Below are positions 6,001-64,000 of a DNA stretch of 64,000 nucleotides, piece after piece. A program made the position numbers and the translations under genes. Under the pieces are notes generated by a model, which saw nothing but the letters and a program-made list of their open reading frames with translations, was not told the origin of the DNA and did no database searches. How positions within the stretch are numbered: the first letter of the stretch is position 1; each line of letters opens with the position of its first letter. Source of the stretch: Tubulanus polymorphus (lineage: Eukaryota > Animalia > Nemertea); the NCBI RefSeq assembly GCF_964204645.1, contig NC_134029.1, forward strand, positions 5,580,001 through 5,644,000. The letters run 5' to 3'.

Positions 6001-6264
6001 CGACGAACATACGTCAGGACAAACTGAGATTCAAATTGACGAGTTAAGATCAGCTTTTGTACGAGTTGATGGTACTTCGGGACATTAAACATTCTCTTTC
6101 GTTTTATTTGTAGAAATCGCAATCAAACTCCAATTGAAAGTGACTCCTCTTTTTATAGTTACTATCCCGTTTTGTCGATTGCATGGTTGAGAATACTTCT
6201 CTTTGTGTAATCGAAATGTAAATATACACGCGAATTAACTCGTAACAATTTTTCCATTGACAAT

Positions 6265-6441
<177 letters not shown>

Positions 6442-7649
6442 GCCAACTAACACAATCTGGTCGATGAAAAGTAACCCCTATTTATATACATGAAAACCCT
6501 ACAACGAGGAAGAGCGTGTTGATTAAGTTTTCATTATTTTTTGCTCTTCTGCCCAAGTGATAATTTCTAAACATCTATAGACGACCATCCTTCAAAGCCT
6601 ACTTCTACTTGGAAAAAATCAGTTTAAAATGGGTCATTTTCGTTGGAAATCATCTGTGTCACTAACCGAAATATCCACGAGTTATTGAACTTGTTAAAGA
6701 GTTTGTTTTGTCAGGTTCCCCGGAGAATATCATAATATTCACTTGGTACCGGCAAGTCAGTATTGAATTCTGGCGTCGATGTTGGGCTTTAAAAACGACG
6801 GAAACATAAAAACCGGATATACGAAAGCATGTACACACAATATTTCGCTATTCATATAAATAATTTATTAACAAAGACAAAAAATAAGTTATATAACAGT
6901 TTATGTACAGGTGTATATTGTTATTAAAATATATGAATATACTTCTTGCTGCCACCCGATGCATATTTATGAGCAACTTTGTAATATAGGGGTACAGAAG
7001 GCCTCTTTAGATGTTATCATCGTAATTTGGCTTGAAAGCGCGTCCCCGAAAATAACCAGTATATACATAGATAGCTTTATTTACTCGGGACACTCTGAAC
7101 GATGAAAAAACCAAACTGGCGATTGTAAGCGTGAATGGATACTGCGACTCAAACGATTCAATATCATGTATATTAGAATGTGATACAGAGGAATTACCGT
7201 TTTTGAACATAAGGCATGGACCGTCACGTATGATGAAGGTTTTCTTCATTGCATCTATGATTATAAACTTCATAATCTGAGGCCTGTCGTTAGATTTCAT
7301 AGAGTTTAGTTGGGTCCTGAATTGCGCATATTTGACTTACTACTACACAAAACCGGCATTAAAGATTTGTACCGATATGTGGAACTTCGATGGTCCGACC
7401 GTAAAGTATCATCTCGATTTTCAAAAACTAGATATCATTAGTTAGGCACAATCAATTCAACATTTTTTTTTTCATTTTCAAATGACTTTAACATCAATTG
7501 AGCTCGGGGGGGGGGGGTATTGAAGGCACACGTGACAGGGCATCGACTCTTATTGATTACCTAATGATTCATAACAAGATCTTTTGTATCAATAAAAAAA
7601 CCGCCTCCGTTTTGTATTTACATATACAGGATAAATTTTTAGAAGATTA

Positions 7650-7655
7650 TTTATT
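7650..7655 (-). promoter_or_regulatory. Candidate Gsx polyadenylation signal (AATAAA)
   Basis: tttatt on + (AATAAA on -) about 420 nt past the Gsx stop; alternatives at about 7077 and 6864. Confidence 0.35.
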
Positions 7656-8076
7656 TTACCACTGTGTAGAGTTTATGAGCAAATTCCAAGTGATTGCATA
7701 GTTAACTTCGAGTTGTCGGTTCGATGGCAGCTGCTTAAAGTTACGTAGGATTTATGCATGAAATCTGTGCAAACATCATCCGATTGAATGATGAAAACAA
7801 TATATATCTATATAGATTGATAAAAGGATATCATTACTTCGCGATATAGTTTTACAAACTGATATGAAATGTTGAAATGCTTTGATAATCGAATTAAGAT
7901 GTTCGTTTAACGATGAAGGCAAAGTGTAAAACACCGATTTAAGACGGACGGTTTCTTCTTATATAAGCATACACGATTCATTTGCTACAAACAACAAATT
8001 TCATCCTACACAATATGCTCCAAGATTCGTCGTTTGCATGATAGTTTGATATTGTTACTGAGGTCGATGTTTTTTT

Positions 8077-8573
8077 CTATTTTTGGGTCGTGTCTGCTAC
8101 GGCGTTCGTCTGTTGGTGAAACACCGACGCCGTCGAGGCAACTTCGATGACGTTATCGCGGTCGCTAAGCAGTGAATGTTCATCGTCGGAAGTATCTCTC
8201 ATTTCTGCTTCATTGTCCGAGAAATAAATACTGTCCTTCGTCGATACTGAACTCTTCTCGTCCGAACTACAGCCGTGATGCCCGAACGAATTTTTCTTCT
8301 CATGTCTCGAGTTGCACGTGCGCAAACAACGACATTTTCGCTGACCCTCAGTGGCGTCTTCTTTCTTGTATTTTACGCGTCGATTCTGGAACCAGATTTT
8401 CACTTGCTTTTCGGATAAGTTCAGATACGTGGCGATCTCTATACGGCGCAGGCGAGACAGGTACATGTTACTGGCGAATTCTCGCTCGAGCTCCAAAAGC
8501 TGGGTACTGGTAAAAGCCGTGCGGATCCGCTTGCTGCTGTGTAAATCGTCGGGACTGACACTTCTATTGTTAC
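8077..8573 (-). CDS. Gsx: Gsx (GS homeobox / ind) exon 2, containing the homeodomain
   Basis: Homeodomain [58 protein letters not shown] is diagnostic of the Gsx/Gsh/Ind family. Acceptor (minus) cctatag|GT at 8574/8573 is phase 1 and joins exon 1 in frame. Stop TAG at 8079-8077. Confidence 0.96.
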
Positions 8574-10058
8574 CTATAGGAATACAAGAGTGGAGAACTA
8601 TAACAAATATCGTCAACAATCATCGAAAAGTTCAATATTTCTAATTATGTAACTTTCGAATTTGTTTGATTTGCAATTCAATTTAGGATTTCAAACAGCG
8701 TATACGATGTTTGTACTTTGCAATGGTTAGCCCACGTGGCATAAAATTAACTAAAGAATATGCAGTTTATTTATTTCCTTATTCAACGACCCGGTTATGC
8801 TTGCAGGTGTACAAACTTAATAATGAATACTTTATTTTACGCACGAGATCTAAGCAAACTTTTGAAATTATTCATTATCGACTCGGCGGTGTACGCATCG
8901 AATTAATGAATATAAATTCCGGTTTCAGCATCGATTTACACTGTGTAATTAAAAGTCAACCACGATTTGATACGGGCGCCGACATTATTCATGCATATTT
9001 TGAAATTAAAATTCATAAGCTATCTAATATAGATATCACTTATCAGTAAAAGGGATTATCATTTTTTTATTGTAGTCGTTTTGCATCGATTGATTCTGCG
9101 TATTTTCAGCAAGCTGTCTTAATATCAAACGTTTACAGTTGACCTTTTATGAATTCAAAATACAAAAATACAAATGCTAAATTGATAGGACTTTAAGCGG
9201 AATAAAATTTAGAATACAGAATTATGTAATGTGAGATAACTTATTTGGTAAAAAATCTTAAGAATCGGTAATCTTATCGCGAAATTGATTAAAATGGTGC
9301 CGTGAAATATTTTCAAATGTACATATGCATTCGAACGTCGAAAGTTTGCAGCAATGTGAAATTTTTTCCACCAAAAATTATTTGGCTTTATCAAATCACT
9401 CATGTTTTACTTAATATGTCATTTTGTTCAAGAACCACCGCGCGCTGGTTTTTTATTCGACTCCGAATGCGGCGCATACGAAATACGAAATCGTTATTTC
9501 AATTGAGGAATTGAGGGGTTAGCGATGAGCAACCCGTGGCTACAATGCGTGCAACGCGTGGCATGACACAACAGGGCGCTTAGCGTGTTTATGAATTCAT
9601 GTTGTCCCCGAGTCGTAACATCTGAATATCATCCCAATTAATTCAATTAATAAAATCTTCACACGTCACCTTAATGAGCGCGATGTATGTTTTTAATCGA
9701 GCGTAATATTGCCGAACCCGAATCAATCCGAATCTCTTTCTATTTTTCTTTGAAATTGATTTTTGTCCGAATTACGCGTGTGTTATACGGATATCAGTAG
9801 GGAACATTGTAATTTTTCCTCCAACAAGCAGCAGGGGTAAAAATCCCAATAGCGAAAATATTGCTGAATAATTGAAGATTAAAAATGTTCGGCCTTCTGT
9901 TCGGGATTCATCATGCGATCATTTTGGCACTAAATCTTTTTCGCAGCATTTGCCAGTAAAAAAATGCTACTAATTCTCTGCCTTTTTTACTCAAAAGTAG
10001 GTTTGTAACGAATGAATAAATGGTCGCCATGAAGTATTTAAGATTCAAATTGACTTAC

Positions 10059-10494
10059 CGATGCTTGGATAACGTATTCTGTTGGAATCATGAGCAAGTC
10101 GGTAAGGCGTCGGTCTGTCCAACGGCGGGCTGATGTTGCTGGCAGTTGGTCGAGGCATTCCTAACGACGGACGAGGAGCTGCCCGAAACGCTGATGGTAG
10201 AACATGAGACGACATGACGCTATTGGCCGCAATACTGCTTACCGGTTTTATCAGCGGTAGAGCCGAGGTCATCGGGATCATACCGGCAGGGGTTCTCACA
10301 CACAGGGGGCAGCACATACCGAACATGTCCGCGGGATGGGACCCAGCGCGCGGTATACAATGAAACGAATGACCAGGCAGTCCGTGCATGGCTGGATGGT
10401 CAACGTGTCCAATATGTCCGTTATTCAACGACGGGGAATCGAGTCCATTGGCTTTCTTCACTATCAACGAGTCCACCAAAAATGAGCGAGACAT
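10059..10494 (-). CDS. Gsx: Gsx exon 1 (N-terminal SNAG-like motif, CCPLC motif)
   Basis: Starts MSRSFLVDSLI (Gsx/SNAG-type N-terminus) and contains CCPLC, similar to the CxCPLC of Gsh proteins. Donor G|gtaagt at 10059/10058. Exons of 436 + 497 nt give 310 aa plus stop. Confidence 0.93.
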
Positions 10495-10680
10495 TTCTAT
10501 AAAGTTATTCCACTGACTTCTCACCCAAATATAAAAGGTATCCGAAGGAACAGATTTAGATTAAGTTCGTAATTGGATAAATCCTCTTATGATACGTGGT
10601 GTATTTTTCTTCGCTCGTGCCGCGATGTCGCGCATGCGGTTCCAAACGACAGTTTGATGCGAGTCCACTCAAATCATGGC

Positions 10681-10687
10681 TTTTATA
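10681..10687 (-). promoter_or_regulatory. Candidate Gsx TATA box
   Basis: Minus strand reads ccaTATAAAAgcc about 190 nt upstream of the ATG; a CCAAT motif lies at about 10854. Confidence 0.45.
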
Positions 10688-13600
10688 TGGCGAGCTATTG
10701 TCCCGATCGAGTCGACGAGCTGGATTCCGAATATCACGCATCAATCAATGGAAATTTAATAATGCTGACGAATCTCATCATTATAATAAAAAGCTTAGTG
10801 CAAATAAAGGCGACGCTTCAAGCATAAATACGACACGCAAGTGAAGCATTTTACCAATCAAAATTCTGCAATGTTTTGTTGAGCACGCGGCGGTCGTGCG
10901 AACGGGGCGGGGTCGGCTGGGACGTCCATCGATTCGGAGGGTTTTATTGGTCCGCAAACTGTACGCAGAAAACGCCTTTAAACTAGAAACAATTTTCATC
11001 TATCGATTAATAAATGATATAACAAAAATAAGTTGTATACATAGATTTATCGTTGATTATCGATTGATAACACTTAAAGATCTGCACGGACGACTGAAAA
11101 ATCTTTTTTTTTTTGATATGTATAGCAAATATTGGGCCAGTTTGTTTTTTTTGCTCATGAGAAATAAAACCTATTGTTGGAATGAGTATTTTGGTAAATT
11201 TCTGTCTTACAATCGTCCAATCCTGATCAACAACAAAGATTAACCAATAATACTGGGTAGACAAAATGTATATTGAATTGTATTGAGTCGATGTGAGTCA
11301 AGGCTATGTAGTTCAAGGTAAAAAGTACAAAATCCGATTTTCCCACAAAGGGAGCATCAATGTTCATTTGAATTCGACTTTTTATGTTTTTATATTTTTA
11401 AACGCTTTATCGTATGTCATTTTCGAAAATCTAGTTGCTCTTTGTAACATCTCGTTCAATCTGCATGCCGCCATATTTTTTTCGTGATATTACGCCTGAG
11501 CGCGCGAACAATGCGCTGGTCTCGACAATGCGATGTGGAAGCCGTTCCACCAAAACAGGTGCACGCTCGAATTATACATAAAACGTGTTTACTCACTTGC
11601 ATCCATATAATAACTGCAATGCGTAATTAATTTTAAAAATGTAAAAAAAACAAGATGACTCTTCATTTGTGTCGGCCTAATTTGTGGTTTCAAGTGAAGT
11701 TAATTTGTTCACAGCTGGTCAATGTTTATCGTATGCATTATTCACAAAAAGCGCCATGTATTCATTTCATTTTAGCTATAACGTTAAACTAAGCCACTTT
11801 TACGCGCGTTTTGATAAACGTCAATCGTTTGTAGACCCAGATGACGCCAACAATGATATTATGTAGCCTTTTTGTCTATTCAAACGGTTTCATTTAATGA
11901 AAATATTCATGTCAATATTATTACGATATGGTAATGATTTATATGAATTTCTTTTTAAATGTAGGTGATATATTCCATCATAAGGGTCTGTGAAACCCAT
12001 GTTGACGAGGCCAATTATCGCTGATAATAAAAAAAGATTAAAAAAGAGGATTATCAGATGTGGAGGGTGCCTTTTCTCTTGTTAGTAATCCCAGCTTCAT
12101 ATTCAAATGTGACACACTTAAAACCAGCTAACTTAGGTTATATTGATAAATGCATTCCTGTTAGTCAACGTAAGGGCATTTTATTATTAGATACATTAAT
12201 CAGATTCTTGTGAAATACATGCTTATTGTGAAATAGAGACGAAGCCTCTTGAATGAAGCATAGAAACATGTAATTCACAAATACGGGAATTAGTGGAAGA
12301 CGTTTCGAATGCTCAGTTTTCGTCCTCGGTAACTCGAGTTTCTAGTCATTTTCCGTTTACAAATCCATCTCAATTTAATTGGACTTAATGGATTCTGACA
12401 ATAGTCGGATAGAACGGTCCGTGTGAACTATGAGGCGACGCGGAACACGAGTAAATACTTATTAACGTTTAATACAATCACTGCAGGCTATTGTTTATAT
12501 CGTCCGAACAACGTTTAATAAGGAGTTTCGCTGAAACCGGACACTCAACAGTGTGGGCTAACAATAGCGCCCTGGAGTCCCCCATTCAATTTTGTGTTGG
12601 CTTTCACACCTGTCCAATGTATGTCCCGTGTTTCTTATTTACGGAGATACCCGAACGGGAAAGTATTTATCATGTATTGTGCGTATGATTAGAATAGATA
12701 TGTTTACAGTCTTGCACGTTTTGTTGCCACACAGATTCATCATCTTCGGCGCCAATCCAGGGACCACTGTCGAAAGTGGCAGAACTTAAAAAGGGCATTA
12801 GCCAGAACAAACGAGGTGGTATCATTTTTGACAATTGACTGCTTCGAGATGTAGTACTGCATATTGAGATACAGTTCCCAGGTATTAAAGACGAGATCCT
12901 GAATGTTGTGCATTTTTGTTGAAAATCATCTGCCTCGTCTTGTAAAAATTTGTCCTACTTTTGATGGAGACGACTAAATGCGTCTTTTTTACTTTGGGGA
13001 TGAAAAAGGGCACGAGATTTTCGCGAACGGTAGCACGAGCTTACCGTCTGAATCCGCGCCTCTACACAACAAACGTGATATTACCTTTTCTATTGCTTGT
13101 ATATTTGAAAAAAATATATATTTGAAAAAAAGTGGCGCCGTACATGTCTGAATTCTGGAATTTTGGAAGTTGAAATAGAGGAAAAGTTGAAATTAGGAAG
13201 ATCCTCTAATCTACAGTGTGATGCCATCGATGTTGTCTACAGAATTTGGGATCGAAACCGCGGCATTATGCGTAGATTTTTTCATCTCAATACAGTCTTT
13301 AATCGACAAATATGTCAACCGCACGGCGACCGCAAACTTGAAACTGAATTTACAGTAATTAAATAGCACTTATCTCTCATTTCGACAATACAGCGTACTT
13401 ATGATACTTAAAAAAGTATGAAAACAGACGCGGAAGCGCGACCATGTATGATTCGTATCTCGTGGATCGTACGCAGTCGCGCGCCTGTCACATCATCGAG
13501 GAGTCACATGGCGGCAAGCTGCACGTACTTGATCCAACCAAAGAGTGCCGATACTTATTAGATAGACCGCTACACGGCGACCACAGAACACGCGACAGTT

Positions 13601-13779
13601 ACAATTCGAACACAAAAATCTATATAACTCAAAATGAACGTATATTATGATGACCAGTAATTGAAAAAAATAGATCTAATTTACATATATTTGAATATGA
13701 TACTTCACGCGTAAACTCGAATGTTTCGATCGTTTTTCCTAAATTCAAGATTTAATTAAATGTCTAGTTAAACACGTTT

Positions 13780-15100
13780 CGCCGAGTGCTTGTGGTAATG
13801 TTTGCACTTTTTCGAAGTTTATTTAGACTATGAGTTCAAGAACCAGGTGATATGCGTGAAACAGTATTATTTGATAATCAAGGCCTTGGGACATGGCATA
13901 CGTGCTTCCCATCCAATTGCAGATCATCACAACCATGTCATTTGAAGCTATATGTGTTTAAAAATCTATACTTGTATTAATTCTAAATTACTATTTGAAC
14001 ACAACATATAATGACTGGAAGACTGGTAATAATCAAAGTTTTTTGAGTTAACAAGCAAGAACCCACAGTTGATATTAAAAAGTTTATAGTTTGACAGTTT
14101 CGGAGATTGAGAAACCATCCGCTGGAGATTGGCGCCAATGATCCACAAACCAATATAGTCGATTAGCAACTGGCACCACGAGATATTTGTGGAACTGACA
14201 TGTTTGAAATTCGAGTATTTTGGTGGATTCGGTTAATTGGAGGCATTTTATTTCTATTTCTGTCTAGGTTTTACGGCTATTCATTCACACTGCATCCGCT
14301 GACAAAGGCGATGAATTTGCCGCACGCACATGACCAATTTCATCTGGTCCAGTCTGGCTTGTTGTACGCTGACCAGGGGTATTTGATCACGTTCTAAAGA
14401 GTCTCTATCTTGACCTGACAATTGCTACAATGTTATAAAGTAGAATAAAAAAGAATAAAAAGCACGCTTCGTCCATGTTCCGTTCATTGTAAGCAGCTAG
14501 GGTCAGTTCACTGGTCAGTTTTTAAGTTATGGTCTCGCACATTGTAACTACCATCAGCTCCCGACGCGTGCGTCTCAAACAACAAGTAAATGGAGCTAAT
14601 ATAAACTGACGAGAAAGCCTGAGACATTCCCCATTTCTTAACCCTGAATTACTGTCGGATTGTGTTTTGTGTCCAATTATGATGAATACAAGTTTCATCC
14701 ATGCGCGCTTAATCTTGTACTGTCGGCACGTGTGCATGCCCGGTCACGTGATATTCAAGCAGACGAGACGGTGATACTTGTCACCAAATAAGCGGCCAAC
14801 AATTTCACGCAAGAATAAACGATGAAGATCAACGGATAATAATCACATTTTGAAACAGCAGACTGCGATTGTGAATGCTGGAAAAACAATTTGTAAACGA
14901 GTTCTCCGCAGCGCGCGCTGGGCGGATGTCCGTCCCACGCAAGCGAGCGGTCAGCCGATCCATGGCTCACCTGCCGAGAGGTCCGGCACGGACGCGGACA
15001 AAGACACAAGCTACAACCACTGCGATAGAGCTGGCGGACATTCAGTTAGTTTTTCGCGAAAAACGATAACTATGGGTTACCCAGTTTTTGTTTCCGCTTG
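13780..15100 (-). pseudogene. Decayed intronless rhodopsin-class GPCR (putative)
   Basis: Frameshifted minus-strand fragments in TM1-TM7 order: LGN..LSF (~15085), SASVPDL (~14990), GTDIR..YKLFF, LAAYLVTSITV (14799-14767), KRAWMKLVFIII (~14700), YLVVPV..WIIGANLQR (~14185-14120), FLLV..LIITSLPVII (~14060-14005), WFLN/HSLN (~13845-13821). Many stops and frameshifts. Confidence 0.45.
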
Positions 15101-18100
15101 GACATTCGACGCACAAAGAAGCGTTGCTGACCGCCTGTAGAATGACCATATGCTGAAGAACCAATTAGGCGAATACGGCTAGAGGGAACGACAAATTGGG
15201 ACATTTCATTTAGGATGAAAATCGTATGAATGTTCCTAAATGAAACATGCCCCGTACAAAAATAGTGTCGCGAACAACGGTATGGCGTGTTTGCTTTAGA
15301 CGGTAAGCAAATTTACGCACATCACACCTGAGGCACAGCCATTTATGTTGATTTAAAAACAACTTTTCTTTTTTTTACAAAGCAACATAAACTGCATTAA
15401 CGAAGTCTAATTTGTCTAGTATTTTTCACTTTGCCAAAGCCAACCATACTGAGTAGGCGTTCTACCTGTGGATTCGGAGGATATGGCTGGAAGCGATCCT
15501 CTAAATGAAATAAAGGGATTCGAAAAAACCACACCGAGCCAGATCTGTCCATATGTGACGGGCTAAAGCAACCTACAATTAAACGCAACAAGATGAAAGG
15601 GCTAAAAACTTCGCAATGGGAACAATACATCCATATGTTTTCTCATTAACAACCTTATGATCTTAATTTTCTATACGAGCGCGTTTGTTCATCTCTCTTC
15701 AAATTAGAGGTGACGATGTGATCTGTTGAAGTATAGTGCGAACGATAATAGGCATTTTGCCATGTTCTATTTGCATTTAAGCAGCGATTATTAGCCGAGA
15801 TTACGCACACGGTTAAATGCGTCGACTAAAAAATCGTCCATCCAATTGACTAATATGGATTTTGTCATTTAACATCCGGGTGGCTGCCTAGTTCGAACAA
15901 GGCCATCTGCTCGGAGCTCGACGATCAAAGGACATCGAGCAAAAACTGGTAATTAACAAAACACTTTTCAATGGACTGTTTTTGCTGCGTCGTAAAATTG
16001 AATTAAATCAAACGACGATTCATTTTCATCATCGGGTTTCAGACGCGGAAGACAGATGTCGCTACCTTCTCCATATCGTGTTATTATCGGACCTGCTAAT
16101 AAAATGTAGCGGCTAGATAACATCTACAAACGACGCGCGAACCGTAATTTATTTACCCACGTCCTGGCGTCAAATAGCTGCGAGGACTATCAGATTATCA
16201 TCAAATGAAATGCCACAGATTAGCGCGTTTCTTAAGCTCCGAATTCTTCTTAAATCTTACCTTTTAATTACCAAGCAGAAGTATACACTAACAAGATCAC
16301 CCGATCCCCTCCCCTTATCGGGGAGATGCATGAACAGGAACGAACAACAACTCGTGATTTTTAAGATTCTAACACGTTCGGATTTCGGTTCCAATTAAGC
16401 TCCTTAATCGCTGGAAATGGGTATCATTGTTTGATGCCCAGTCGTCAAGGGCCCTGTTATTCATTTGACTTAACGCGACGTTGAAAATACCAGGAAAAAA
16501 ATTTATCAATTTGTGGGCAAATGATTACGACACGACGCCCTATTATTAGCTAATTCACGTTTCGTAAGATTTTGTGAGATGAAGCGAAATGTTGGGCGGC
16601 AGAATCGCAAGTTTTGTCAATCAAGTCGGCTTTCACGAGTTGTCAACGTGGCGTTTAGGTTCTTGGAAATCATTCGGGGGTTGTCGGTAGTTGATGTGGC
16701 CAACAAAACTTCGGAAAACTGCCCACCGCCATTTTTATGGTGGCGAATTGCCAATTAAAAATAAGATAAGGAAAAATGATTTACGAAGTGGTGAACATTT
16801 CTAACTATTCCTGTCTGTTGTTAAAAGCTCCTTATATGGACTGTTGATCATCAGTTGGTTTGGGCTCACCCGGTAAGTACGTAGTCAATGTTGTGGGAAT
16901 TTTTTCCGGTTTCAATCCAAATCTCGAATAAAGATTCTGTAAAACGAAACAGATTCATGTCCTATTTAGACTGGAAGGAACGTGTATTATATTCCAAACC
17001 ACCACCTGCAGGTCAGGACATTCTATAATAAGTAATTGAATTTAGTTTTACAGCTAATAATAAAGAATAAAAATATGAAATTTCATGATAAATAATATAG
17101 CATTGAATGTGATCTATTGAATTGTATGCAATATTTGATCACCGGCTTCATAATTGCCACACATAAAACAATCGTTTCCATCCGACTGATAGAAAACTCA
17201 ATTCATAGCCTGTTTACAATACATCAGCATTTTATTATTAATTTTAGATAAACGTGACGCTATGTTTGCAGGCTGCCCAGGTGATGAAAGGTCCATTGTG
17301 TTCTATACATGGAGCCTATATATCAACGCTACAAAATTACCTTTGAAAAAATGCTAGCCATGCACCTTATCTCATATCATAAATATTTTCCGAAGAAATT
17401 CTTTTATCTCGTTTCGGTTACATCTCAAAAGCAACTTTCATGAACATTAAACTAGTAAGAAAGATTGGTAATACGCTTGGGTCTGTACCCAGTGACACCT
17501 ACTAACACAGCTTCAAGTAATTGTGGATTCGAGGAATTGGGGTTCGAACCTGAATAATGGTCGATCGACATCCAAAGAAGAGATTTTATATGAGGTGGTC
17601 CTGTCATGATGATCGCGAAGTATCGCAGTCTAAGAATATTTTGTTTCCTATATTTTCTCCTTAAATCTCTGTATGTATTACAAACCTGTTCCATTCTTGT
17701 GAATGCGGAAAATAGTGTCATTGGGACAAAGGGATCGTCTTGAGGTGGTCAAGATGGGCACGAGTCAGCAGCATTTAAATATAAAATTGTTATATACAAC
17801 GATACATAGCGCTCGTCGTCTTTTCTCCAGGAGATATAAGGCATATAACAATTCGAGATCTCTTTGAAAAGGTCTGTTAGGAACATTATGAAATTAATAA
17901 CTCGACAAGTGCTATTTCAATTAGTTGGTTAGTTGTAGCATATATCTAGCAATGGGTATTTTCGCTTGTGAGGTGTGTCATGTTCTACGTTCACCATTAT
18001 TTTATGATGCTTTCATATTGAAAATTGTTTCCCAGGGAGTATCTCGGCGTACGCACGTCGGCGCCATTGAGAATGGAGACCGGTAGAGGATAAACCTATA

Positions 18101-21100
18101 TGTTGTCGTTCAACAAAAACTACTCGTGGGAATCTCATCTTATTCATGTGACATATACAATAAAGAATAGGACAACTCTAGCACGTGAATATTTATCACG
18201 AGCGATATATGTAGTTGTATAGATTTATGGAATTGTCTTCGGTGACGACGTGGGTTTCCCACCGGGAGCGATGTCTTGTCGTCCCAACTTGTGTATTCGG
18301 TAATTGCCGTCATTGTTCCCGTCGAACGAACACCAGAAACCCGCCCAATTGCTCACTTCCGGTAGTTTCACCAGTTTTATTTCCTAGGACAAGGCAACGT
18401 AATTGTCATTTTTTGTCAACGGTTGGATAGGTCTAAATTCTCTGTTGACGTTTTATGTTATGCACGCAATTCGTAACCCCGTACAATGAAATAGAATTAT
18501 CACAAATTCAATAATCTCATTCGACCAATCATCCGACTCAATCTATAGGCCCTCCCAGAACTAAATCCCTCTTTCATTCGCGGCAGGTGTGTCGAGTTTG
18601 TAAGGGACGCATAATTCAATAAGAATCAAAATATAACCAATCAATCAAATCGATAGAGGAAAAGTATCCCTTATATATGTCGAAGTAAAATACATAGGAT
18701 CAATCCCTCCCTGTGAATCGAGGAGAGTTCCCTCGATAATATTATGAAAAACCGGTCAATCCTAATGCACCTACATTTTACTCCAGGTCAGGGTTCCGAT
18801 GCGAACGAATAACTACTTTGGCCTTGTTTCAAATAAAGGACTCGTGTCGCGGTCTCTTGTCTTCGTCACCTATAGTTCACTATAGAAATATGTTTTATGC
18901 GGCGCGTGCGTGAGCGCGTGTAACGCGCGCGGATGAATACAAGTATCTCATATTGATAACGCTAGACGGCGCTTGCGGTCGAATGAAATCCTGTAAAACG
19001 TGCCGAAACTATTTAGCCCGTTTTTAACAAATCAATCCTACCGTGGGAATCGTACTGTAGAAGCATTTAATGAAACCAATGATTCATATTTTCACACAAC
19101 TGATAAAAGAATATTCCTTTTTATCGTCTGCACTTGTACTTCCGATCGAACTCCTGAAAAAAGAGTTAATCTTTTATTGCGCACAACTGAATTTAATGGA
19201 AGGAATAAAGGACAAATAGTTACCACGTTAACAAAGTGTCCGTCTAACAAATGCCATTCGATATTGCCCTGTCGCTATAAAGTGTCGGTGAAATTTACTT
19301 TATAATCTGTTTGCTTCCATATCACACCTATTCTAATATTCAAAATGTGAACACAATGAGATGTCAAATCGAATACATTTCAGATGAAAATAAATGGAAA
19401 ATCAGGAAAAAACGATTTCACATTAATGACGATTATTATTAGTCTGAGTTAGAACTCCCGCCTTCGTAGAAATCTTCGCTAAATATCGCATTTTTCACTT
19501 AATGCCCGAACAAAACGACGATTCAATGGCCGATATGTGTATAATGACGATCTTGTGAAAGTTTATTGTTGAATACGAGCCAGGAGTCGAGACACACCTG
19601 TCGACTCGGAACTTCGAAGCTAGACCCCCGACTTACAATACGAGATCTCACACAGTTTATCAATCTGTTGACAGAACATTAATTTCACGGACACGACGAT
19701 AATTCTTGGTCGCTTATTAAGAATAAGGTTTTTTTCAAGGAAGTCCCCATGAACATATTTCACACGCATCCCAAGTGGCTGAGAACATGCCCAATTATTA
19801 TTAAAAAGAAAACATCGATTTTTCTGACGAAGATTCGGGGAGAATTGAATTTCGAGGGTTTTGTGCCAATTGCTGGAATGAAAATTGAAAATTTCAACCA
19901 AAGAAAACAAACGTTTTGATAATGCTGTGCCATCCATCATTTGAGGTTTCAATATTTAAGGACTTTGCGTTAAGACATTCATTTTTACTTTTCAACCCGG
20001 GATAGCAGACTCTTTGGGAAAGCCCGGGATCCACAAAAATATGAAAGAAATTACATTGCAACCAAAGATTTTCAAGGAAATATGCGATTTATATTTCATA
20101 TATCGAAATTCTTGCAAGGAAATCATTATTTACAAGATGAAACCCTATCGTACGATTCGTAGAACCGAAATCAAGCTTCTTAGTGGAGACCAATCAGTTG
20201 ATTCCCAGGAGATTCCGAGGAGTTCGTGATTCTACCAATATAGCACGCCTGGCGGGAATTTTCGTACAATAGCGATTTTGCGTTTAGTGTCAGATTTCGA
20301 CAACACGTAGGCGTGGCAGCACCATACAATGTGAGAAATTCTGTAAGAAATTTCGATTTGGAGAAACCCGGGCCTGATAAATAGCGAGCAATCATCACTG
20401 GCCTAATCTTACAACATTCCTATGAAAAATGAGATCAAACCGACGCAGAAACTGAGAAACTTGATACAATTTACATCTAAATCTTTATATTGTATACATA
20501 TTTGTATTTTAGCGGCAATATGGATGATCCTTGCTCATTAAAAAAAAAACATCGTAAGAATCAAATGTTCAGAATCAAATATCCCATTACATGAAGCATT
20601 TTGTATCATCATTATTCTATGTCTAATGAAATGAAAGAATTGAAGAATCTTCGAAATTGTAACATCTAAATAAAATCACATCGACGTTTATTCATGAAGA
20701 AAACGACCGTAAGACATAAGTACAACGCGTTACATCGTTACAATAATCAAAATGATTATCAATCAAAATGATTATCAATGCGCTTATCTAGATCATAAGA
20801 AGTACCAACGTACAACAGATGAGCTGGACAGTGGTAAACTCTCAGGCTGGACGACACACCCGTGTCCTTAGAAAATTTAATTCAAATTTCCCACATGAAC
20901 ACGAGCGCATGTTCACCCGAATGTTGATAATCATAGGGCAGTAAGCGTCGGCATTCGTTTGATGTGGCCGCTAGTCTGGCGCTATACTGATAAGACTGTT
21001 TAACGCTTTGAAGTAGTGAAGCAATGATCGCAACGTATATACAGTTAAAATTAATGACCCTCTATTTCACGGGATATTAATATATATGACAACGCGTTGG

Positions 21101-21663
21101 CTATAGTTGATATTATATGTGAGGATGCGTTGTAAACAGGCGATATATAGAGTACATTGAGTCGAGTTCATGAAATCGGCCACACCTTTTGTAGCATATG
21201 TCGGAGTGCAAAGAATAAGAGCTTTCGAAGAGAAAATTGTGCTGTATTTAAGATACTTGGTCAGAACGGGTTTTCACGCGTTTACGAGACATTTCCCTCT
21301 AATAGACGCGAATAGACATTATTCCTCTCTTTTCATTTTCGAAATGGTTTTAAGTTGAAAGAAATAAAGTCTATAGTTTTCATCAAAAGTATAAGATTGG
21401 AACTACCCGATATCCCACTATACAGAACTGCCTCAAGTATAGAACATCCTGTTGTTGCGATAGGAACGAACGATAAATCGTAGTAAAACTGACAGGAAAC
21501 AAAAACACGTGTAAAACTTTGTAAAAATACTTTAGAAAAATTGTGATCTTCGAAAAGTTGAATAGGTCATTTAGCGACGACAGAGGGAGGGACTCGCATT
21601 ACGTCACGCAGCCATGACGCGCCACTATTGGTCGTTGAACACAACGCGGCCTACATCGACCGG

Positions 21664-21683
21664 AGATCAAAGGGTAGCCGCCA
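21664..21683 (+). promoter_or_regulatory. TCF/LEF HMG site plus adjacent helper site (candidate Wnt response element) upstream of Cdx
   Basis: AGATCAAAGG (reverse complement CCTTTGATCT) at 21664-21673, followed 3 nt later by GCCGCCA at 21677-21683; about 250 nt upstream of the Cdx ATG. Confidence 0.6.
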
Positions 21684-21923
21684 TCATTAAAAGAGCAATA
21701 ACTCTAAATTATGGCAGTTTGTCAAATATCGCTTTGTAGATAGCCGAGCTATGACTTTGTGTAAGTTGATTGATGGGTAATATAGAAAGGACACGCAACT
21801 AGTTAACTATAACCGAGTTCAACGGGTACGCAGCGGCAAACCGAGCTCTCTTTACAGAGGGCATCAGAGCAAGCGACCATTACGTGTTCAGTACTTCAGG
21901 CGAACGGCAGTTTCGATGTGAGG

Positions 21924-22680
21924 ATGGTTTCAGTTCAATTTGAGCCTCATTTGACCATGTTACCCGGACATCATCATCACCATCATCATCCGCAAAACTC
22001 TTGGAGCTGCGCGCCACCGAATCCGTTCTGTTATCCGCAGCCGCAATCGACAACTACTCAGTACAATCAGGACTTATCCGGACAATATCATCACCACCAT
22101 CACCATCTTCAGCATCATCTATCCACGGCTACAGTCACATCACCTTACGGTATCGGCAACGAGAATTTGGCATACGGCAATCAGCAGCATTCTCCGTGGC
22201 CCGGTCTTTACCCAACGGCATCGGCGACCAGTACGCGCAATATTGACTGGGCACCGCCATTCGCGACAACAAACACACCGAATCAGTTACCGGCGGGCAG
22301 TACTAGTTCTCATCTTCCTCAAGGCGGTATTAATACGATCAGTAATCATCATCACCATCATCATTTACCTCTTCATCAACAAACTCACCACCATGAAGAC
22401 GTCAAGCCACTCTCGCCGTCATCTCAGCAGATTCCGACACAAGCATCGGTCACAGCGGTTCCTTCCCATCACCATCATCACCAAGCAGCCATGGGTATGT
22501 TATCTACTCGACCGATGGGTGTACCACATCGTAGCGATACTTCAGGCGGAGGCGGTCTGGTCTCAACGTCTGCGGGACCTACGTCCTCCAGACAGCAACA
22601 ACAACTATCGCCAAGTAAATCAGAAACGTCCGAATATTCGGAATGGCTGAAGAGCGAAAATCAACAAGAAACTAAAAAAT
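21924..22680 (+). CDS. Cdx: Cdx/caudal exon 1 (His/Gln/Ser-rich N-terminus, hexapeptide-like YSEWLK)
   Basis: ATG at 21924 (MVSVQFEPH...); long ORF with several poly-His tracts; EW motif shortly before the donor T|gtaagt at 22680/22681 (phase 1), in frame with the homeodomain exon. Confidence 0.85.
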
Positions 22681-25423
22681 GTAAGTATTCGATCAGCAAA
22701 AACCGAAAATCCTATCTCATCTTAATATCAATCGTTCTTGGAAATGCATATAACCTTATCAAGTTATCTAAATGGAATTGAACAACTAAAGACCAAAATG
22801 TTGATCAAAATCTCCATGATTTCACTTCAAACAGGGAGTCTTCACGATTCTTCACGTTATTATCTGAAACATTTCAGTTTTTGAAACAATGAAATGATAA
22901 ATGCGAATTTCATAGTGAAAGCGTGCACGAATGGTTTCAAAACATGAATTTAGATGATATGTATCAAGAGCCATGTATCTTTTCTAGTTGTCGTGTCTTT
23001 CAAATAATTATTTGAGCACTGTTTATAAAATCTAAACAAATCAAGAAATTGATGAGTGAGCTCATTACAATTAACGCAGTCACAAAATAAATTCTGGAGC
23101 AGGAACAAAATTTATGAATATTTCTTCTCCAGTGTTGTCAAGCGTTTTAGATTATTATTCCAACAGCGCATGTTTATATTACACTGATGTAAAGCGCACT
23201 GATTAAAATTTGTAGGAGTTCGCTATATAATTATGTTATTATTATAATTATGATAATGATAATTTATCATCAATAAATCCTACAAAAATGGCCCCTAAAA
23301 TCACTGGGCCAAATTGTCTTATGAATTTAAAATTATGCGCATTTCTCCGAAGAATTTGGATAGATTGGTCATATACATTTATATCTTATCAATATTATTC
23401 GGCAAATATCTAATTCTACAATTTAATATGCCCGCCCGTGTTGCGTGATTTTGCAACGCTATTCAATACGGATTCACAGCAGGTATGCAATTGAAACTAA
23501 TAGGATAACAATCAAACCACATTTAATAAACTCTATTTGAATACGAAGAATTTTACTAGATATAAGTGGTGACCGGTAAACAATCAAATGACAATCTTTA
23601 AACGGTTGTATTCCACGACGATTAGCTAATTCCTGTTGATATATTTTCCCAGGCTATATAGCCAGTCTATTTAATCTTGTACCCCGATTCGTCGGTATAT
23701 TTACGGAAGATAATCGGATTAAAGAAGTTAATTTGAAGGATCGATGTGTCTAGACACCGCTGTGACATGTTTTCGATGCGGGCAAAATGTTCGAAATAGT
23801 ATTATTCCGCAAGAATTGACGCAAATTGGCTTAATTCGTGTATTGTCTTATTGGACGTATTAAACGAGCTTAATTGCATATCCATATTAATCCTATTTCA
23901 CGATTGCAAAGTACTAGTAATTTTGTATACGATTTATTTCAGAATAATCCGTAAAAATCTGTCGAAATTTAAGAAATTCTATATATCATATTCCAAACAT
24001 TTTGTATCAATGTGCAATGCTTAAGAATTTGAATATTTTGCATAAGACGTTGTATGACAAAATATATATAAAAAAGTCGATAGTGTTGATTTTAAAAATA
24101 TCATGATTTACTACATAATTTTGTATATGTTTTCTCGCCGAGCTTTTTAAACATATCGTACAAAATGAATCACGTATAATTATTGATATTCTTTTTTGGA
24201 AATGTGTAAAAAAGAAACGAAAACGATAATCGGGCATCCTACGAATTGATTGTCCATGCAGTCGGCGATTTGTGTCCAGAAAATAAAAGAACTTTTGTTA
24301 AATTTCTCGGTATAGCGCCTAATCGTTAGTCATATTCTCAACTTCGCTTTAAATTATTACTAACTATTCTCGGTAGGAACTATTTAAAATCAAAAGAGAT
24401 CGTAGGCGCTCTAATCAAAGAGACTATTCTCTTTTTATGGAGTTGAGACGTCACGGAATTCCTATCAATTTCGCATTTAATCTTTCGAAATGGTCTGGTT
24501 TTCGGAGAAACCCCACAAAAGACAGGAAGCAGCGTTTTAGAATACATATATGTATAATGATGGTAGCTAAAAGTTTAATATTTTCAAAGAATTGAAAAAA
24601 ACCTACATGAATTTAGGAGTTTATTAGAAATGATGTTTGTTCGTATGGTCCTAATCAGTAGCAGGACAACTTAAAAAACTGAATAATGAAAAATTGACAC
24701 CAGGGTTCTGGCTTTCCGCTTCATCACGGTCGTGCTTGTAATCTATGCATTTTCGTCGTGTATATATTATAGTGTATCAAATCGTATTAATTAATGACAC
24801 TTCAAGGCGTGAAAATCACTCCCAACATAAATCACGTTATACCTTATCATTATATAACGATATATGATGACTGATTTCATATTCCACTGTCGAAGGTAAA
24901 GTCGAGCAATTGTTTACTGGTTTATAAACTCGAATATTTTATTAGGGGCTCTATACGGTGTGATTTACAATCAGCCGTTTAATGACTTATGAATATCAGT
25001 TTCGATTATTTTATGGACTCGACAATACAGCAATAATGTGCCTGTCTCATGCTCAAACCGACTTCATATAATAATAATAATCATAATATGTACATCATAA
25101 ATTAATTTATATATGAAAGGTGTATAATTTACGTTGTTTATTGCATCACAAACTGAAGCCGCGCTACGCCACGATCTACACGTTACCAAACCCGTGGATT
25201 TTAGTCATTACAATTTCATTATTCACAAAAAAATGAGAAATATCAACTTTGATTCACGGTTAAGATAGAAACCTAGGGGATTTTCTCTGTATAGATTGAA
25301 GATCATTCCGAAAAAAGGGCATTTTTAGATCAAAAGTTAGATATCTTCACAAAACAGCCTTATTTTCATTATTCTCAATGGTGTTTAAAATCAGGCTTTC
25401 TAAAATTCCAAGTGAATATTTAC

Positions 25424-25717
25424 TGTATTTCATTTGTAAACGCATTAAGAACGCATTAATTATAATGAAATTAGAATTCAGATTGAGAAGCTCCTTCGGC
25501 TCTTTTAGGGTTTCTAGCATATGTAACCTTGAAGGACAATAATTGAATTTTCTAAGCAAAAAATATATTCTGTATTTCATTAGCAAACGCATTAAGAACG
25601 CATTAATTATAATTAAATTGGAATTCAGATTGAGGAGCTCCTTCGGCTCTTTTAGGGTTTCTAGCATATGTGACCTTGAAGCACAATAATTGAATTTTCT
25701 AAGCACAAAATATATTC
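25424..25717. repeat. Tandem duplication, 2 x 147 bp, in the Cdx intron
   Basis: Units 25424-25570 and 25571-25717 are near-identical (tgtatttcat...aatatattc); explains the internally repeated ORF 25347-25706. Confidence 0.93.
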
Positions 25718-28599
25718 ACCCGGGATGGATTGGGGGTAACAAAGGAAGTCTTATCAGAAGAACTTAGAATAGCCACATTAAATTCGCGTCGCCAACGCAT
25801 AAACATTGACAACGTCTTCAATTCAATTCCATAGTTGATACCTACATTAGATAACATATGGATTTCTGCGTATCTACGCGATATTTATCTAGATTAGACA
25901 AATACGCGTAAATCCGCAATACGATTTATACGAGGATATGCGAGAATCTTGTATTTGTGCCCCTGATGATTTTTTAATTGCTGGCAAACTCTAGTCGGAT
26001 GCGGGTGTAATTAGTCTCGACGAGGCGCTACTCAGTCAAAGCCGTGTAAAATATTATTTGAAAAGAGTTCTATTTCATCTTCGAAAATAAAGTAGGCAAT
26101 CTGCCTCGGGGGCTGGGGGGTCGATATATCGATTTGACGGTTAGAAACCTGGCAATGAGGTGCGAGTTTGTGATCTCCAAATGGCCGCCGAGGTCCTAAT
26201 GATGTTTTAATGATGGTATCGTTGGGTATCTAATGTGCCATATTACATCATAAGACATTGACTCCTCGCCACTTGGCGACTAGCCCTCTCGCCTTCCGAT
26301 TATCTAATACCAGTCATTTCAAGTCGATTAAACTGTTTAGATAAATAGTATTTTACTTGCAATATTTCATTCGCCAACTCAAATGAAATTTCCCACATTG
26401 TATATACCATTTGTATTTTCATAGTTTTGGCTATTTTACTGTCAGATCTTCGCAGGTCGATTTTAAGTTAAGTTTCTTGTGTTTTTATTGCTATTTAGTT
26501 TGTTTATACGATTTGTATATAAATGGTGATTTTAGGGACTGTATCGAGTGGGTTATAGTGTAGTGACGTGCACTGTTTAACCCTCGTGTCGGCGATCTTC
26601 AAAGGATCCGAATAGTAATGGCCGAATGCCGACCAGACATTTGTCATCCAGGAGTCAGGGCATCTGTTACTGGCTTTCTATTCGCTTCAGCGCCAATCAT
26701 CATTATCTTATATACATATGATACATGTTACCATTAATAACAGTTTTGGTCGGCGGATTTCTGCATTGAATTACGTACTAATATGTAATACACGAATTTC
26801 AACCACATATGTCGATATAAATATAATTAGTATCGGACATCATTCAGTCAATTTTTGAGATACGAGTCACTTTGGCGCAAAAACTACAGTTTAGACCATA
26901 TCTAAAACTTCGCCGATAGCGATTTTCATCGCGCTATGGCCGATACGTGAAAAGTGCCGAATTGTAAGGAGAATTGTCCCGTTAAATGTCAAAAGAATGA
27001 CGGTGGATTGACGGCGGACAAAAGACGTTGGGTGATTTACACGATTCCTGTTCAACGGATCTGCAGAAAATAATAACAACACGAAGCATATACGTCGTCG
27101 TCGTCGTCGTCGGGGGTTGATAGTATACAAAAGATTCGAGAGATTCTTATAGACACGGACGGACGAAATTGCCGGTTGTTTTAGTTTTAGCTCGTAAAAT
27201 CTGCACCGGGCGAACCCGCAGCATTTGCGCGAAACATAGCCACCAATATCTGATCTGATTGGAGAACGCGTTTATTACTGGCCTCGAGTCTGCTGTTGTT
27301 ACTGACAGTAGTGTACTTTATCGCGCAGTCAAACGTATTCGAGGAAATGAGTTTGAGAGAATATTTTTGCCATAAATCGTTTTTTTCGGGGACGCTAAGG
27401 TCGCCCTCTCGATCATAGGGATGTAAAACCTAGAAAAGAAACCCCAATGAAACGCGTGGAAATCGAAATTGTTTATAAGAAATCACTGTATTCGTGGTAG
27501 ATACGAATAGAGATGATCCAGATCTAGTCATGAAAATTAAACGTTGAATTGGCACGAAGTTTCGGTCACCATAGATTAAGTACAGCTCAATATTTTACAT
27601 AGAACCGCTTCAATTAACCTAGATATACTGCTTTAATAACTGATGATTAATGACCACTCAACTCATTAATATCTCCATTCATTTGGATTCATCCCTATCT
27701 GTAGTACAAAGGTTCGCCCGCACCACGCTAACCCTGACCGTGTTCAATTGTTATGGACCCCAACGAATATTGGGTGTGAGGCAAACGCATTCACCTTCTA
27801 CTTCATATCAAGAAAGCTTACAATTTTCTATTCGTTTTTGGCTCGGTTTATGTATGGAAAAGTATTTATGAAGAATATTGTTCCAAGCTGTACCCGTGCT
27901 GCATGGTAACGAGGGCTATTGGGCCAGGGTCCAGTTGCTCTGTGAAATAGCCGTTGGGACTAAGCATAAGTCAACCATGGTCTTATAGCGCTGTACAATA
28001 ATTAACATGGTCAAAAGTCACGTTTGACCGTATAGATAGATCATCCAATTAAACTTCAATTGAATGCTACAATATTCTATGAAACTGTTACAATTTGTTT
28101 ACTCAGGCCGGCATGGGTCGTTTTAATTAAGCCTGAATTCGCAACAATATCCGTTCGACTGGTATTGTACAACCGTACCTAATTGCTCTGTGTCAACTAA
28201 AGTGGATTCCGATCATAAAGACCAGAGGAAGTCAGAGTCCACATACCACAAACAAACATCGCGCCAAGCTTATTAGTGAACCACCGGTGCGAGACCGATT
28301 AAGACTCTAGGACAATTCGCGACTGGCCACAACGAGACCAACAACAACAACGACGGTCACAATATTGTCCAATGGTCGTTAACACGACCGGAGTTACATT
28401 GTTGACGGTGGACATTAAAATGACCATCCATCATTTTGGCTGTTTGCATTGATTGAAGTGACCGCTCGCGACAATAGTTCACGCAGTAACGCTGATTATC
28501 CACTCGATGATCAAACGCTATCCGACATTCGAGAATCATCGGCAGTTTTCGTATATTTTCGTTAACCTAATTACTAAATCATTTTTCTTCTAATTTCAG

Positions 28600-29090
28600 G
28601 GAAAACCAGAACGAAAGAAAAGTATAGAGTAGTTTATACGGATAGACAACGTCTAGAACTCGAGAAAGAGTTTCATTTTAATCGATATATAACATTGAAC
28701 AGGAAAGCCGAAATATCCAAATCGTTAGATCTCACCGAGCGACAAGTAAAAATCTGGTTTCAAAACCGGAGAGCGAAAGAGCGAAAAGATAACAAACGCC
28801 GGATGGAAAAAGATATGACCAGCCCATCTTCGACGAAATCCGGCCCGGAAGATGAGAAAAATAGCCCGAATAGTCCGCAAACCGAAGCGCACTCTGCGCA
28901 TGCGCAGGCGTATCGCCTGAAAACGGAACTGGCCTATGACCACGTTATCGCTGGTCAGCAGCAGACTACCTATTCAGAAATGGACTCGATACCGCATTCT
29001 AATAACCGAACGGGACATACTCAACTGATGCGTGATAGAACCAAAGATAATCTAGGTTTACCAATAAAAACAGAATATCACCTCCAATAG
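28600..29090 (+). CDS. Cdx: Cdx/caudal exon 2, containing the homeodomain
   Basis: Acceptor tttttcttctaatttcag|GG; encodes [74 protein letters not shown] and QNRRAKERK are Cdx-diagnostic. Stop TAG at 29088-29090. Confidence 0.95.
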
Positions 29091-32404: not shown

Positions 32405-32405
<1 letters not shown>

Positions 32406-63562: not shown

Positions 63563-64000
63563 GTAAGATTACCATCTATTATGTTAAAAGCTAATATTTC
63601 ATCGTTTCATTAAAAAAAAAAGAAACTATGGTTTTAGGCTGGTTATATGCGTACATAATAAGATAGGTTATATATCGATGTGTGGTTTGGGATATAATGT
63701 TGTTAACCATTTGTTTAACGTATTCACTGGCTTAATTAACCGTCATCTGGTCGAAAGTAATAACTCCTGTATTTTATTTTTAACCAAAAATGCGCAAATG
63801 AGGGGTGCTACAAGATAAAAAAAACCCTACCATCCATACACTCCATTTAGATGAACTCGCTTCATTTTATTTTGGTACAGCGATTTGACTGATAGACCCA
63901 CAGATGTACAGTTGAGTTCTAAGTTTAAAAGTGGTCTTAAATCTTAAGGGCTGGTCTTAAGTTGGCTATAGAATCAAGCTTACAATCGCTGCGCAAACAT

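What the first reader, a model, noticed from the sequence alone, without database searches (positions are those of the whole stretch)
8077..29090. Rearranged ParaHox cluster: Gsx and Cdx head-to-head with no Xlox between them
Seen: Gsx (minus, ATG 10494) and Cdx (plus, ATG 21924) are divergently transcribed 11.4 kb apart. I found no third WFQNRR homeobox and no Xlox FPWMK-type exon anywhere in the window. Established: the canonical cluster (amphioxus, vertebrates) is Gsx>Xlox><Cdx, with the anterior-neural Gsx and posterior Cdx at opposite ends and their 3' ends facing inward. Inference: either Cdx moved to the 5' side of Gsx (a permuted Xlox-Gsx-Cdx order, with Xlox possibly left of this window), or Xlox left or was lost. 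Either way, genes with opposite axial expression domains now share one upstream interval, which raises questions about enhancer sharing, insulation and colinearity.
Basis: partly seen in the sequence, partly recalled or inferred. Interest (0 to 1): 0.85.

Follow-up and report, generated by a model that had tools for sequence, protein, structure and literature searches.

The report
Back-to-back Gsx–Cdx pair in ribbon worm
In the ribbon worm Tubulanus polymorphus two body-patterning genes, Gsx and Cdx, sit back to back 11.4 kb apart with their usual middle partner Xlox absent between them; this is likely a second case of the Xlox-less pair already reported in another ribbon worm, though its orientation would need at least one more rearrangement.

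Summary
Observation confirmed. Gsx (minus, ATG 10494) and Cdx (plus, ATG 21924) are intact two-exon genes whose best solved relatives are GSX2 and CDX1/2. They are the only homeoboxes in the window, and no gene was found in the 11,429 bp between them. Reads from a second sample cover all 30 bins with no joint, so misassembly is unlikely. The spliced Gsx is an NCBI protein of the nemertean Tubulanus polymorphus. That makes the core finding largely known: two papers, citing Luo et al. 2018, state that the nemertean Notospermus lacks Xlox, and one adds that Gsx and Cdx form an incomplete cluster. What I could not find in print is the divergent orientation. Deleting Xlox from Gsx>Xlox><Cdx gives converging genes, so a transposition, a tandem duplication with reciprocal loss, or two inversions is also needed (inference). 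Luo's figure could not be read. Genome-wide absence of Xlox could not be tested (inconclusive). Enhancer sharing is untested; ParaHox rearrangement is common in lophotrochozoans. Interest modest.

The parts
10059..10494 (-). Gsx coding exon 1 (ATG 10494, N-terminal MSRSFLVDS motif, phase-1 GT donor)
   Evidence: 14 relatives among cluster representatives, best other 49% over the whole exon
8077..8573 (-). Gsx coding exon 2: uninterrupted homeobox (about 8532-8353), cysteine-rich tail, stop
   Evidence: Pfam Homeodomain E 2.4e-22; best solved relative GSX2, 113 bits against PDX1 80; junction as in P0006
10495..21923 (.). 11,429 bp interval holding both 5' ends; no homeobox, no Pfam-matching frame, no Rfam family; one short dispersed repeat at about 12913-12956; TATA-like box at 10687 (minus) upstream of Gsx
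21924..22680 (+). Cdx coding exon 1 (His-rich; ends in a degenerate hexapeptide-like YSEWLK; phase-1 GT donor)
   Evidence: no homologue found for it alone; link to exon 2 inferred from splice signals
28600..29090 (+). Cdx coding exon 2: [13 protein letters not shown] arm, uninterrupted homeobox (about 28617-28796), stop
   Evidence: Pfam Homeodomain E 2.1e-20; six best solved relatives are CDX1/CDX2, 97-104 bits, against Antp 74 and PDX1 62
1..8076 (.). 8 kb downstream of Gsx without a recognisable gene; the side on which a permuted cluster would place Xlox, beyond the window
32405..64000 (+). BLTP1 (KIAA1109-type lipid transfer protein), multi-exon neighbour 3.3 kb downstream of Cdx; closes the cluster on this side
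   Evidence: Pfam BLTP1_N, _M and _C in 6 of 6 frames tested there

Best explanation
This is a real two-gene ParaHox remnant in the nemertean Tubulanus polymorphus: intact Gsx and Cdx point away from each other across 11.4 kb without a detectable gene, and Xlox was likely lost from the genome early in Nemertea. Shown: identity, structure, orientation and spacing of the two genes, and no Xlox in these 64 kb. Inferred: (1) Xlox loss is shared with Notospermus; (2) the orientation needs more than that loss, most simply one polarity-keeping move that put Cdx on the 5' side of Gsx (transposition, or tandem duplication of the cluster with reciprocal loss), since no single inversion of Gsx>Xlox><Cdx gives diverging Gsx and Cdx; (3) the interval is then the two genes' own upstream regions joined, each gene keeping its own promoter and likely its own enhancers, Gsx for neural tissue and Cdx for the posterior end and hindgut as in relatives.
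For: Gene calls: 11, 13, 14, 79. No third homeobox: 2, 59. No intervening gene: 62, 66. Contiguity: run X4 (other sample and study than the best holder X1) has depth in 30 of 30 bins over 7600-25400 and no joint is listed in any of 4 runs; one X1 contig spans 11116-25400 with no other letter. Species: P0006, 100% identical, is named LOC141905475 [Tubulanus polymorphus]. [quoted passage not shown] 2018. Canonical orientation: PMC3710244 (passages). Posterior cdx expression in the nemertean Lineus ruber: PMC4584431 (passages).
Against: Genome-wide absence of Xlox was not shown: no genome is held and the read-based probe caught only 4 other homeobox loci. The published loss rests on one draft genome of another nemertean class, read here only through citing papers. 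The 8 kb left of Gsx hold no other gene, so Xlox could lie just beyond the window; Gsx-Xlox gaps of 31-47 kb are normal. The orientation of the lophotrochozoan ancestor is not fixed by any text I could read, so the number of events is a minimum from the deuterostome layout. No expression data for either gene in this species were obtained.
Confidence: 0.68

Rival explanations
1. Xlox is kept in this palaeonemertean, left of the window (permuted order Xlox-Gsx-Cdx, all polarity as after one transposition of Cdx) or elsewhere in the genome; the loss reported for Notospermus would then be narrower or a gap in a draft.
For: A single move of Cdx to the 5' side of Gsx predicts exactly <Xlox <Gsx Cdx>, with Xlox beyond the Gsx 3' end; only 8 kb of that side are visible and they hold no other gene; Gsx-Xlox gaps elsewhere are 31-47 kb. 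Xlox is present in annelids, molluscs, brachiopods and phoronids.
Against: Two papers state Xlox is missing in Notospermus or in nemerteans; none of the 10 paper searches listed a report of a nemertean Xlox, though such a report could sit unseen in a text or supplement.
Confidence: 0.22
2. The two genes are kept together by shared regulation: enhancers or a boundary in the 11.4 kb interval act on both promoters, and this constraint has held the pair since early Nemertea.
For: The interval is tight, without a detected gene and poor in repeats, tighter than the clusters read about (87-107 kb in sea star and acorn worm); linkage without Xlox is also reported in Notospermus, whereas a rotifer without Xlox has the two genes 4.4 Mb apart.
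Against: Start codons are 11.4 kb apart, each with its own upstream region; the whole window is compact and repeat-poor; CpG o/e of the interval (1.31) is close to that of BLTP1 (1.22); no conserved non-coding match in 80 Gsx-type loci of other animals (these are short and distant, so weak). Linkage may be inertia in a slowly rearranging genome (recalled for nemerteans).
Confidence: 0.2
3. The layout is an assembly artefact: a false join inside 10.5-21.9 kb.
For: No listed contig spans the whole stretch; X1 breaks at 11115; loose ends exist at 12913-12956 and, in single contigs, at 10506, 13662 and 14079; 102 further loose-end rows were not shown; X4 reads are 150 nt at about 8-fold depth.
Against: The X1 break is one base at the end of a T run that 7 X4 reads cover away from their ends; the 12913-12956 ends mark a 40-nt dispersed repeat inside the unbroken X1 contig; 10506 and 14079 are bridged by X3 record 18 and X2 record 11; no joint in 4 runs; no N in the window.
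Confidence: 0.03

Closest known systems
Incomplete Gsx-Cdx ParaHox cluster of the nemertean Notospermus geniculatus (Luo et al. 2018, seen only as cited in PMC13161344 and PMC10675955)
   Same: Same phylum; Gsx and Cdx linked, Xlox missing between them.
   Different: Here a palaeonemertean with a chromosome-scale record; spacing 11.4 kb and divergent orientation shown. Orientation and spacing in Notospermus could not be read, so it may be the same or not.
Intact ParaHox cluster (amphioxus, sea star Patiria miniata, acorn worm Ptychodera flava, vertebrates; PMC3710244, PMC3698058)
   Same: Orthologous Gsx and Cdx, on opposite strands, no intervening gene.
   Different: There Xlox lies in the middle, Gsx and Xlox share a strand and the cluster spans 87-107 kb; here there is no Xlox, the 5' ends face each other and the pair spans 21 kb.
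Rearranged lophotrochozoan ParaHox loci (Platynereis Gsx-Xlox pair on opposite strands, PMC2723086; Capitella Xlox-Cdx pair, PMC2603591; loosened mollusc clusters, PMC7566022, PMC8848322, PMC4759782)
   Same: Two-gene remnants and changed orientation are common in this clade.
   Different: Those pairs include Xlox. 'Head-to-head' is used loosely in this literature (PMC3698058 uses it for the canonical Xlox-Cdx pair), so the Platynereis pair is not a sure precedent for diverging promoters; figures were not visible.
Gsx and Cdx without Xlox in the rotifer Brachionus manjavacas (PMC13161344)
   Same: Xlox absent, the two genes on one scaffold on opposite strands.
   Different: 4.425 Mb apart with many genes between; no cluster.

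Membership tests
Gsx (Gsh/Ind) orthology group | Gsx-type homeodomain | tested here: met
   Best solved relative GSX2, E 2.2e-32, 113 bits against PDX1 80; named hits of the profile search are mostly Gsx/GS homeobox
Gsx (Gsh/Ind) orthology group | Cysteine-rich stretch after the homeodomain (protostome Gsx, per PMC13161344) and N-terminal MSRSF-type motif | tested here: met
   KCRCLRTC follows the homeodomain; motif at ATG 10494, shared by 69 of 87 fetched homeodomain proteins over 240 aa
Cdx (Caudal) orthology group | Cdx-type homeodomain with KTRT..KYRVVYT arm | tested here: met
   Six best solved relatives are CDX1/CDX2, 97-104 bits; Antp 74, PDX1 62. No tree was built.
Cdx (Caudal) orthology group | Hexapeptide (W-containing) motif upstream of the homeodomain | tested here: inconclusive
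   Only a degenerate YSEWLK at the end of exon 1; exon link not confirmed by a transcript
Intact three-gene ParaHox cluster | Xlox between Gsx and Cdx | tested here: not met
Intact three-gene ParaHox cluster | Gsx pointing into the cluster and Cdx pointing back (3' ends inward) | tested here: not met
   5' ends face each other against the layout in PMC3710244
Intact three-gene ParaHox cluster | No intervening non-homeobox gene | tested here: met
   0 of 81 frames reach a Pfam cut-off; no Rfam match in 1-33000; short exons or lncRNA cannot be excluded
Nemertean two-gene Gsx-Cdx remnant (Notospermus type) | Nemertean genome with Gsx and Cdx adjacent | tested here: met
   Species name; adjacency
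Nemertean two-gene Gsx-Cdx remnant (Notospermus type) | Xlox absent from the whole genome | tested here: inconclusive
   No genome held; laying runs at 80% on the Gsx homeobox caught 4 other homeobox loci, none Xlox-like, far too few to count as a screen
Nemertean two-gene Gsx-Cdx remnant (Notospermus type) | Same orientation and neighbours as in Notospermus | not testable with these tools
   Luo et al. 2018 not held; no eukaryote genomes searchable; 0 of 80 metagenome Gsx-type loci held a second homeobox gene
Bidirectional promoter pair | Transcription starts within about 1 kb (recalled definition) | tested here: not met
   Start codons 11,430 bp apart; starts not mapped, but a TATA-like box lies about 190 bp upstream of the Gsx ATG

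The most novel reading that the evidence does not exclude
The ParaHox cluster was circularly permuted in the nemertean stem (Cdx moved behind the Gsx promoter by tandem duplication and reciprocal loss), and the back-to-back Gsx-Cdx pair has been held together ever since by regulation in the 11.4 kb interval, with Xlox either lost or still sitting left of Gsx in a never-described Xlox-Gsx-Cdx order. That would give a compact natural test of whether ParaHox linkage depends on Xlox and on gene order.
Probability: 0.25. Interest if true: 0.62.

Novelty: new member of a known kind. Interest (0 to 1): 0.36.

Why it matters
It extends the Gsx-Cdx pair without a middle Xlox from one draft heteronemertean genome to a palaeonemertean, which would date the change to the base of the phylum if Xlox proves absent genome-wide. 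The divergent orientation shows that the pair is not a plain deletion product of the textbook cluster. If other nemerteans share it, the 11.4 kb interval is a small, tractable place to ask what keeps ParaHox genes linked; if they do not, it is one more case of ParaHox reshuffling in lophotrochozoans.

Tried and rejected
Whole-genome search for Xlox: no genome held. Read-based substitute: runs laid at 80% likeness on the Gsx homeobox caught 3 other X1 contigs and one further locus in X4 reads; decoded by hand from the variant and loose-end tables they look like Hox3, a posterior Hox, a PRD-class box with an intron and NK1 (class labels recalled); none Xlox-like, but only about 2 Hox-type loci of the roughly 11 expected (recalled) were caught, so the test is inconclusive. 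Expression: no RNA holder listed; X5 and X6 laid 0 contigs on the Gsx homeobox; no evidence either way. Gene order in relatives: 80 metagenome loci with a Gsx-type homeobox (best 80 of 85), mostly under 10 kb; 0 of 80 held a second homeobox gene and none matched non-coding window DNA. Cdx exon 1 alone found no relative at 138-441 aa. ESM Atlas gave no usable hit for a BLTP1 piece. Cluster look-up for names could not be made. CpG o/e does not separate the interval from BLTP1; a crude recalled CTCF-like pattern had 0 matches in the first 33 kb, which says little. Rfam: 0 matches in 1-33000 at E 0.1. Earlier scan findings: 4 look-ups, nothing returned. Rejected: misassembly; plus-strand gene not Cdx; hidden or decayed Xlox homeobox between the genes (profile was Gsx-based, which scores PDX1-type boxes well, but an old, heavily decayed remnant could be missed); bidirectional promoter. 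Luo et al. 2018 and Wang et al. 2017 were not held; their figures and supplements bear directly on whether the orientation is already in print.
Full report
Observation. A six-frame scan of the window finds WFQNRR twice, at 8394 (minus) and 28755 (plus), and no FPWM/YPWM-type hexapeptide exon. The minus-strand gene runs from ATG 10494 through a GT donor after 10059 and an AG acceptor before 8573 to TAG at 8077 (310 aa); the plus-strand gene from ATG 21924 through a donor after 22680 and an acceptor before 28600 to TAG at 29090 (415 aa if joined directly) (exon ends read from the context strings). Both second exons carry a Pfam homeodomain. Against solved structures the first is closest to GSX2 (113 bits; PDX1 80) and the second to CDX1/CDX2 (six best hits, 97-104 bits; Antp 74; PDX1 62). 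The start codons are 11,430 bp apart and point away from each other.

No Xlox in the window. A profile from 120 Gsx-type homeodomains, run over six frames with stops read through, scores only these two boxes (next unrelated hit E 0.15); tblastn with 40 of the 120 gives E 0.26 at best between the genes. Of 81 stop-to-stop frames of 58 aa or more in 1-8000 and 10560-21812, none reaches a Pfam cut-off (one chance-level hit); Rfam finds nothing in 1-33000. To the right, BLTP1 begins at about 32405 and fills the rest of the window (6 of 6 frames tested match BLTP1 families). To the left only 8 kb are visible and hold no recognisable gene.

Contiguity. Nine runs of one species label were listed; three hold the stretch. 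Laid on 7600-25400 at 90% likeness: X1, possibly the assembly's source, gives contigs 7600-11114 and 11116-25400; the one-base break is at the end of a T run, where 7 X4 reads lie away from their ends (6 read another letter). X4, raw Illumina reads from another sample and study (about 12% of the run, 1028 reads laid), has depth in 30 of 30 bins, roughly 4- to 10-fold outside one repeat bin. No joint is listed in any of the 4 runs. Well-supported loose ends cluster at 12913-12956, a 40-nt dispersed repeat inside the unbroken X1 contig. Single-contig loose ends at 10506 and 14079 are bridged by other contigs of the same sample; the one at 13662 is not bridged by a listed X2/X3 piece but lies inside the X1 contig; 102 loose-end rows were not shown. 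No single record spans the whole stretch. Misassembly is unlikely, not formally closed.

The animal. A stored protein identical to the spliced Gsx (P0006) is named by NCBI as LOC141905475 of Tubulanus polymorphus on a 24.9 Mb record. That Tubulanus is a palaeonemertean and Notospermus a heteronemertean is recalled, not from a call.

What is in print. [quoted passage not shown] 2018)'. PMC10675955 (passages) also lists Xlox as missing in Notospermus. Both lean on one paper, which is not held, so orientation and spacing there are unseen. The canonical layout, Gsx and Xlox on one strand and Cdx reversed, is in PMC3710244 (passages) and PMC3698058 (passages); that the 3' ends of Xlox and Cdx face each other is recalled from the human locus. 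Lophotrochozoan loci are often broken or reoriented: Platynereis (PMC2723086, passages and section 8), Capitella (PMC2603591, passage), molluscs (PMC7566022, PMC8848322, PMC4759782; passages; supplement hits and Table S7, which give order but no strand). 'Head-to-head' is used for the canonical Xlox-Cdx pair in PMC3698058, so the word does not fix polarity in these texts. Passages of PMC8149454, PMC10379933, PMC11310086, PMC7305137 and PMC13125763 added context only (other rearranged clusters; Xlox also absent in xenacoelomorphs). Ten searches listed no paper on the ParaHox locus of Tubulanus (12 papers listed that name the species with 'genome', seen as listings only) and none describing diverging Gsx and Cdx; figures, most subscription papers and bioRxiv supplements are not covered.

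How it most likely came about (inference). From Gsx> Xlox> <Cdx, deleting Xlox leaves converging genes. None of the single inversions (Gsx, Cdx, Gsx+Xlox, Xlox+Cdx) makes Gsx and Cdx diverge. Two inversions do, and so does one move that keeps polarity: Cdx placed on the 5' side of Gsx, by transposition or by tandem duplication of the cluster with reciprocal loss. The latter predicts <Xlox <Gsx Cdx>, with Xlox, if kept, left of this window. Given the published loss in Notospermus I put genome-wide loss at about 0.7 and retention at about 0.2. My attempt to test it with reads was too insensitive: 4 other homeobox loci caught, none Xlox-like.

How it most likely works (inference). Two transcription-factor genes with separate promoters; the interval is the sum of their upstream regions. 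Cdx is expressed at the posterior end and in posterior endoderm of the nemertean Lineus ruber (PMC4584431, passages); Gsx is mainly neural across animals. No expression or chromatin data exist here. The interval is tight and repeat-poor, which fits regulatory DNA, but CpG o/e is not distinctive (1.31 against 1.22 in BLTP1) and 80 Gsx-type loci from metagenomes gave no second homeobox and no non-coding match. Enhancer sharing remains possible and untested.

Verdict. Real, correctly described, and mostly explained by a known feature of nemertean genomes. The new elements are a second nemertean class and the measured divergent layout, which may already be drawn in a figure I could not see. New member of a known kind; interest 0.36.

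Noticed in passing
window 10494-10216 (minus): The NCBI model P0006 (LOC141905475, 'uncharacterized') starts at internal Met 94 and omits the conserved N-terminal MSRSFLVDS motif; ATG 10494 is likely the true start (motif in 69 of 87 fetched full-length relatives).
   Followed up: yes
window 22680/28600: Joining the two Cdx exons puts Trp where Cdx proteins usually have Gly before KTRT, the hexapeptide is degenerate (YSEWLK), and no database protein of 138-441 aa matched exon 1; a small extra exon or a different annotation is possible.
   Followed up: partly
window 32405-64000 (plus): BLTP1/KIAA1109-type bridge-like lipid transfer protein gene directly downstream of Cdx, not one of the ParaHox neighbours named in the papers read (CHIC, PRHOXNB, Flt1, Lamc1/3, Btk, Rad50); includes a 1.96 kb Ser-rich exon at 39931-41889. 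Usable as a synteny marker.
   Followed up: partly
window 12913-12956: About 40-nt dispersed repeat inside the Gsx-Cdx interval with many diverged copies elsewhere in the genome (depth about 140 in X4, 15 X1 contigs).
   Followed up: no
window 6267-6435; 25415-25717; 32813-32885: (AT)84 microsatellite downstream of Gsx; two 147-nt tandem copies in the Cdx intron; an exact 36-nt duplication in BLTP1 intron 1.
   Followed up: no
window 8586-8574 and about 8598 (minus): A second in-frame AG acceptor 24 nt upstream of the annotated Gsx exon 2 acceptor would add 8 residues; use unknown.
   Followed up: no
whole window: CpG is not depleted anywhere (o/e 0.87-1.76 in 2 kb bins), even across the BLTP1 gene body, suggesting little methylation-driven decay; X4 depth implies a genome of very roughly 250 Mb.
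   Followed up: no
L001:465-725: A 1.3 kb metagenome contig encodes a Gsx homeodomain identical to the window's, 82% over 87 aa including the cysteine-rich tail (73% DNA identity); the closest outside relative found, too short for gene order.
   Followed up: partly
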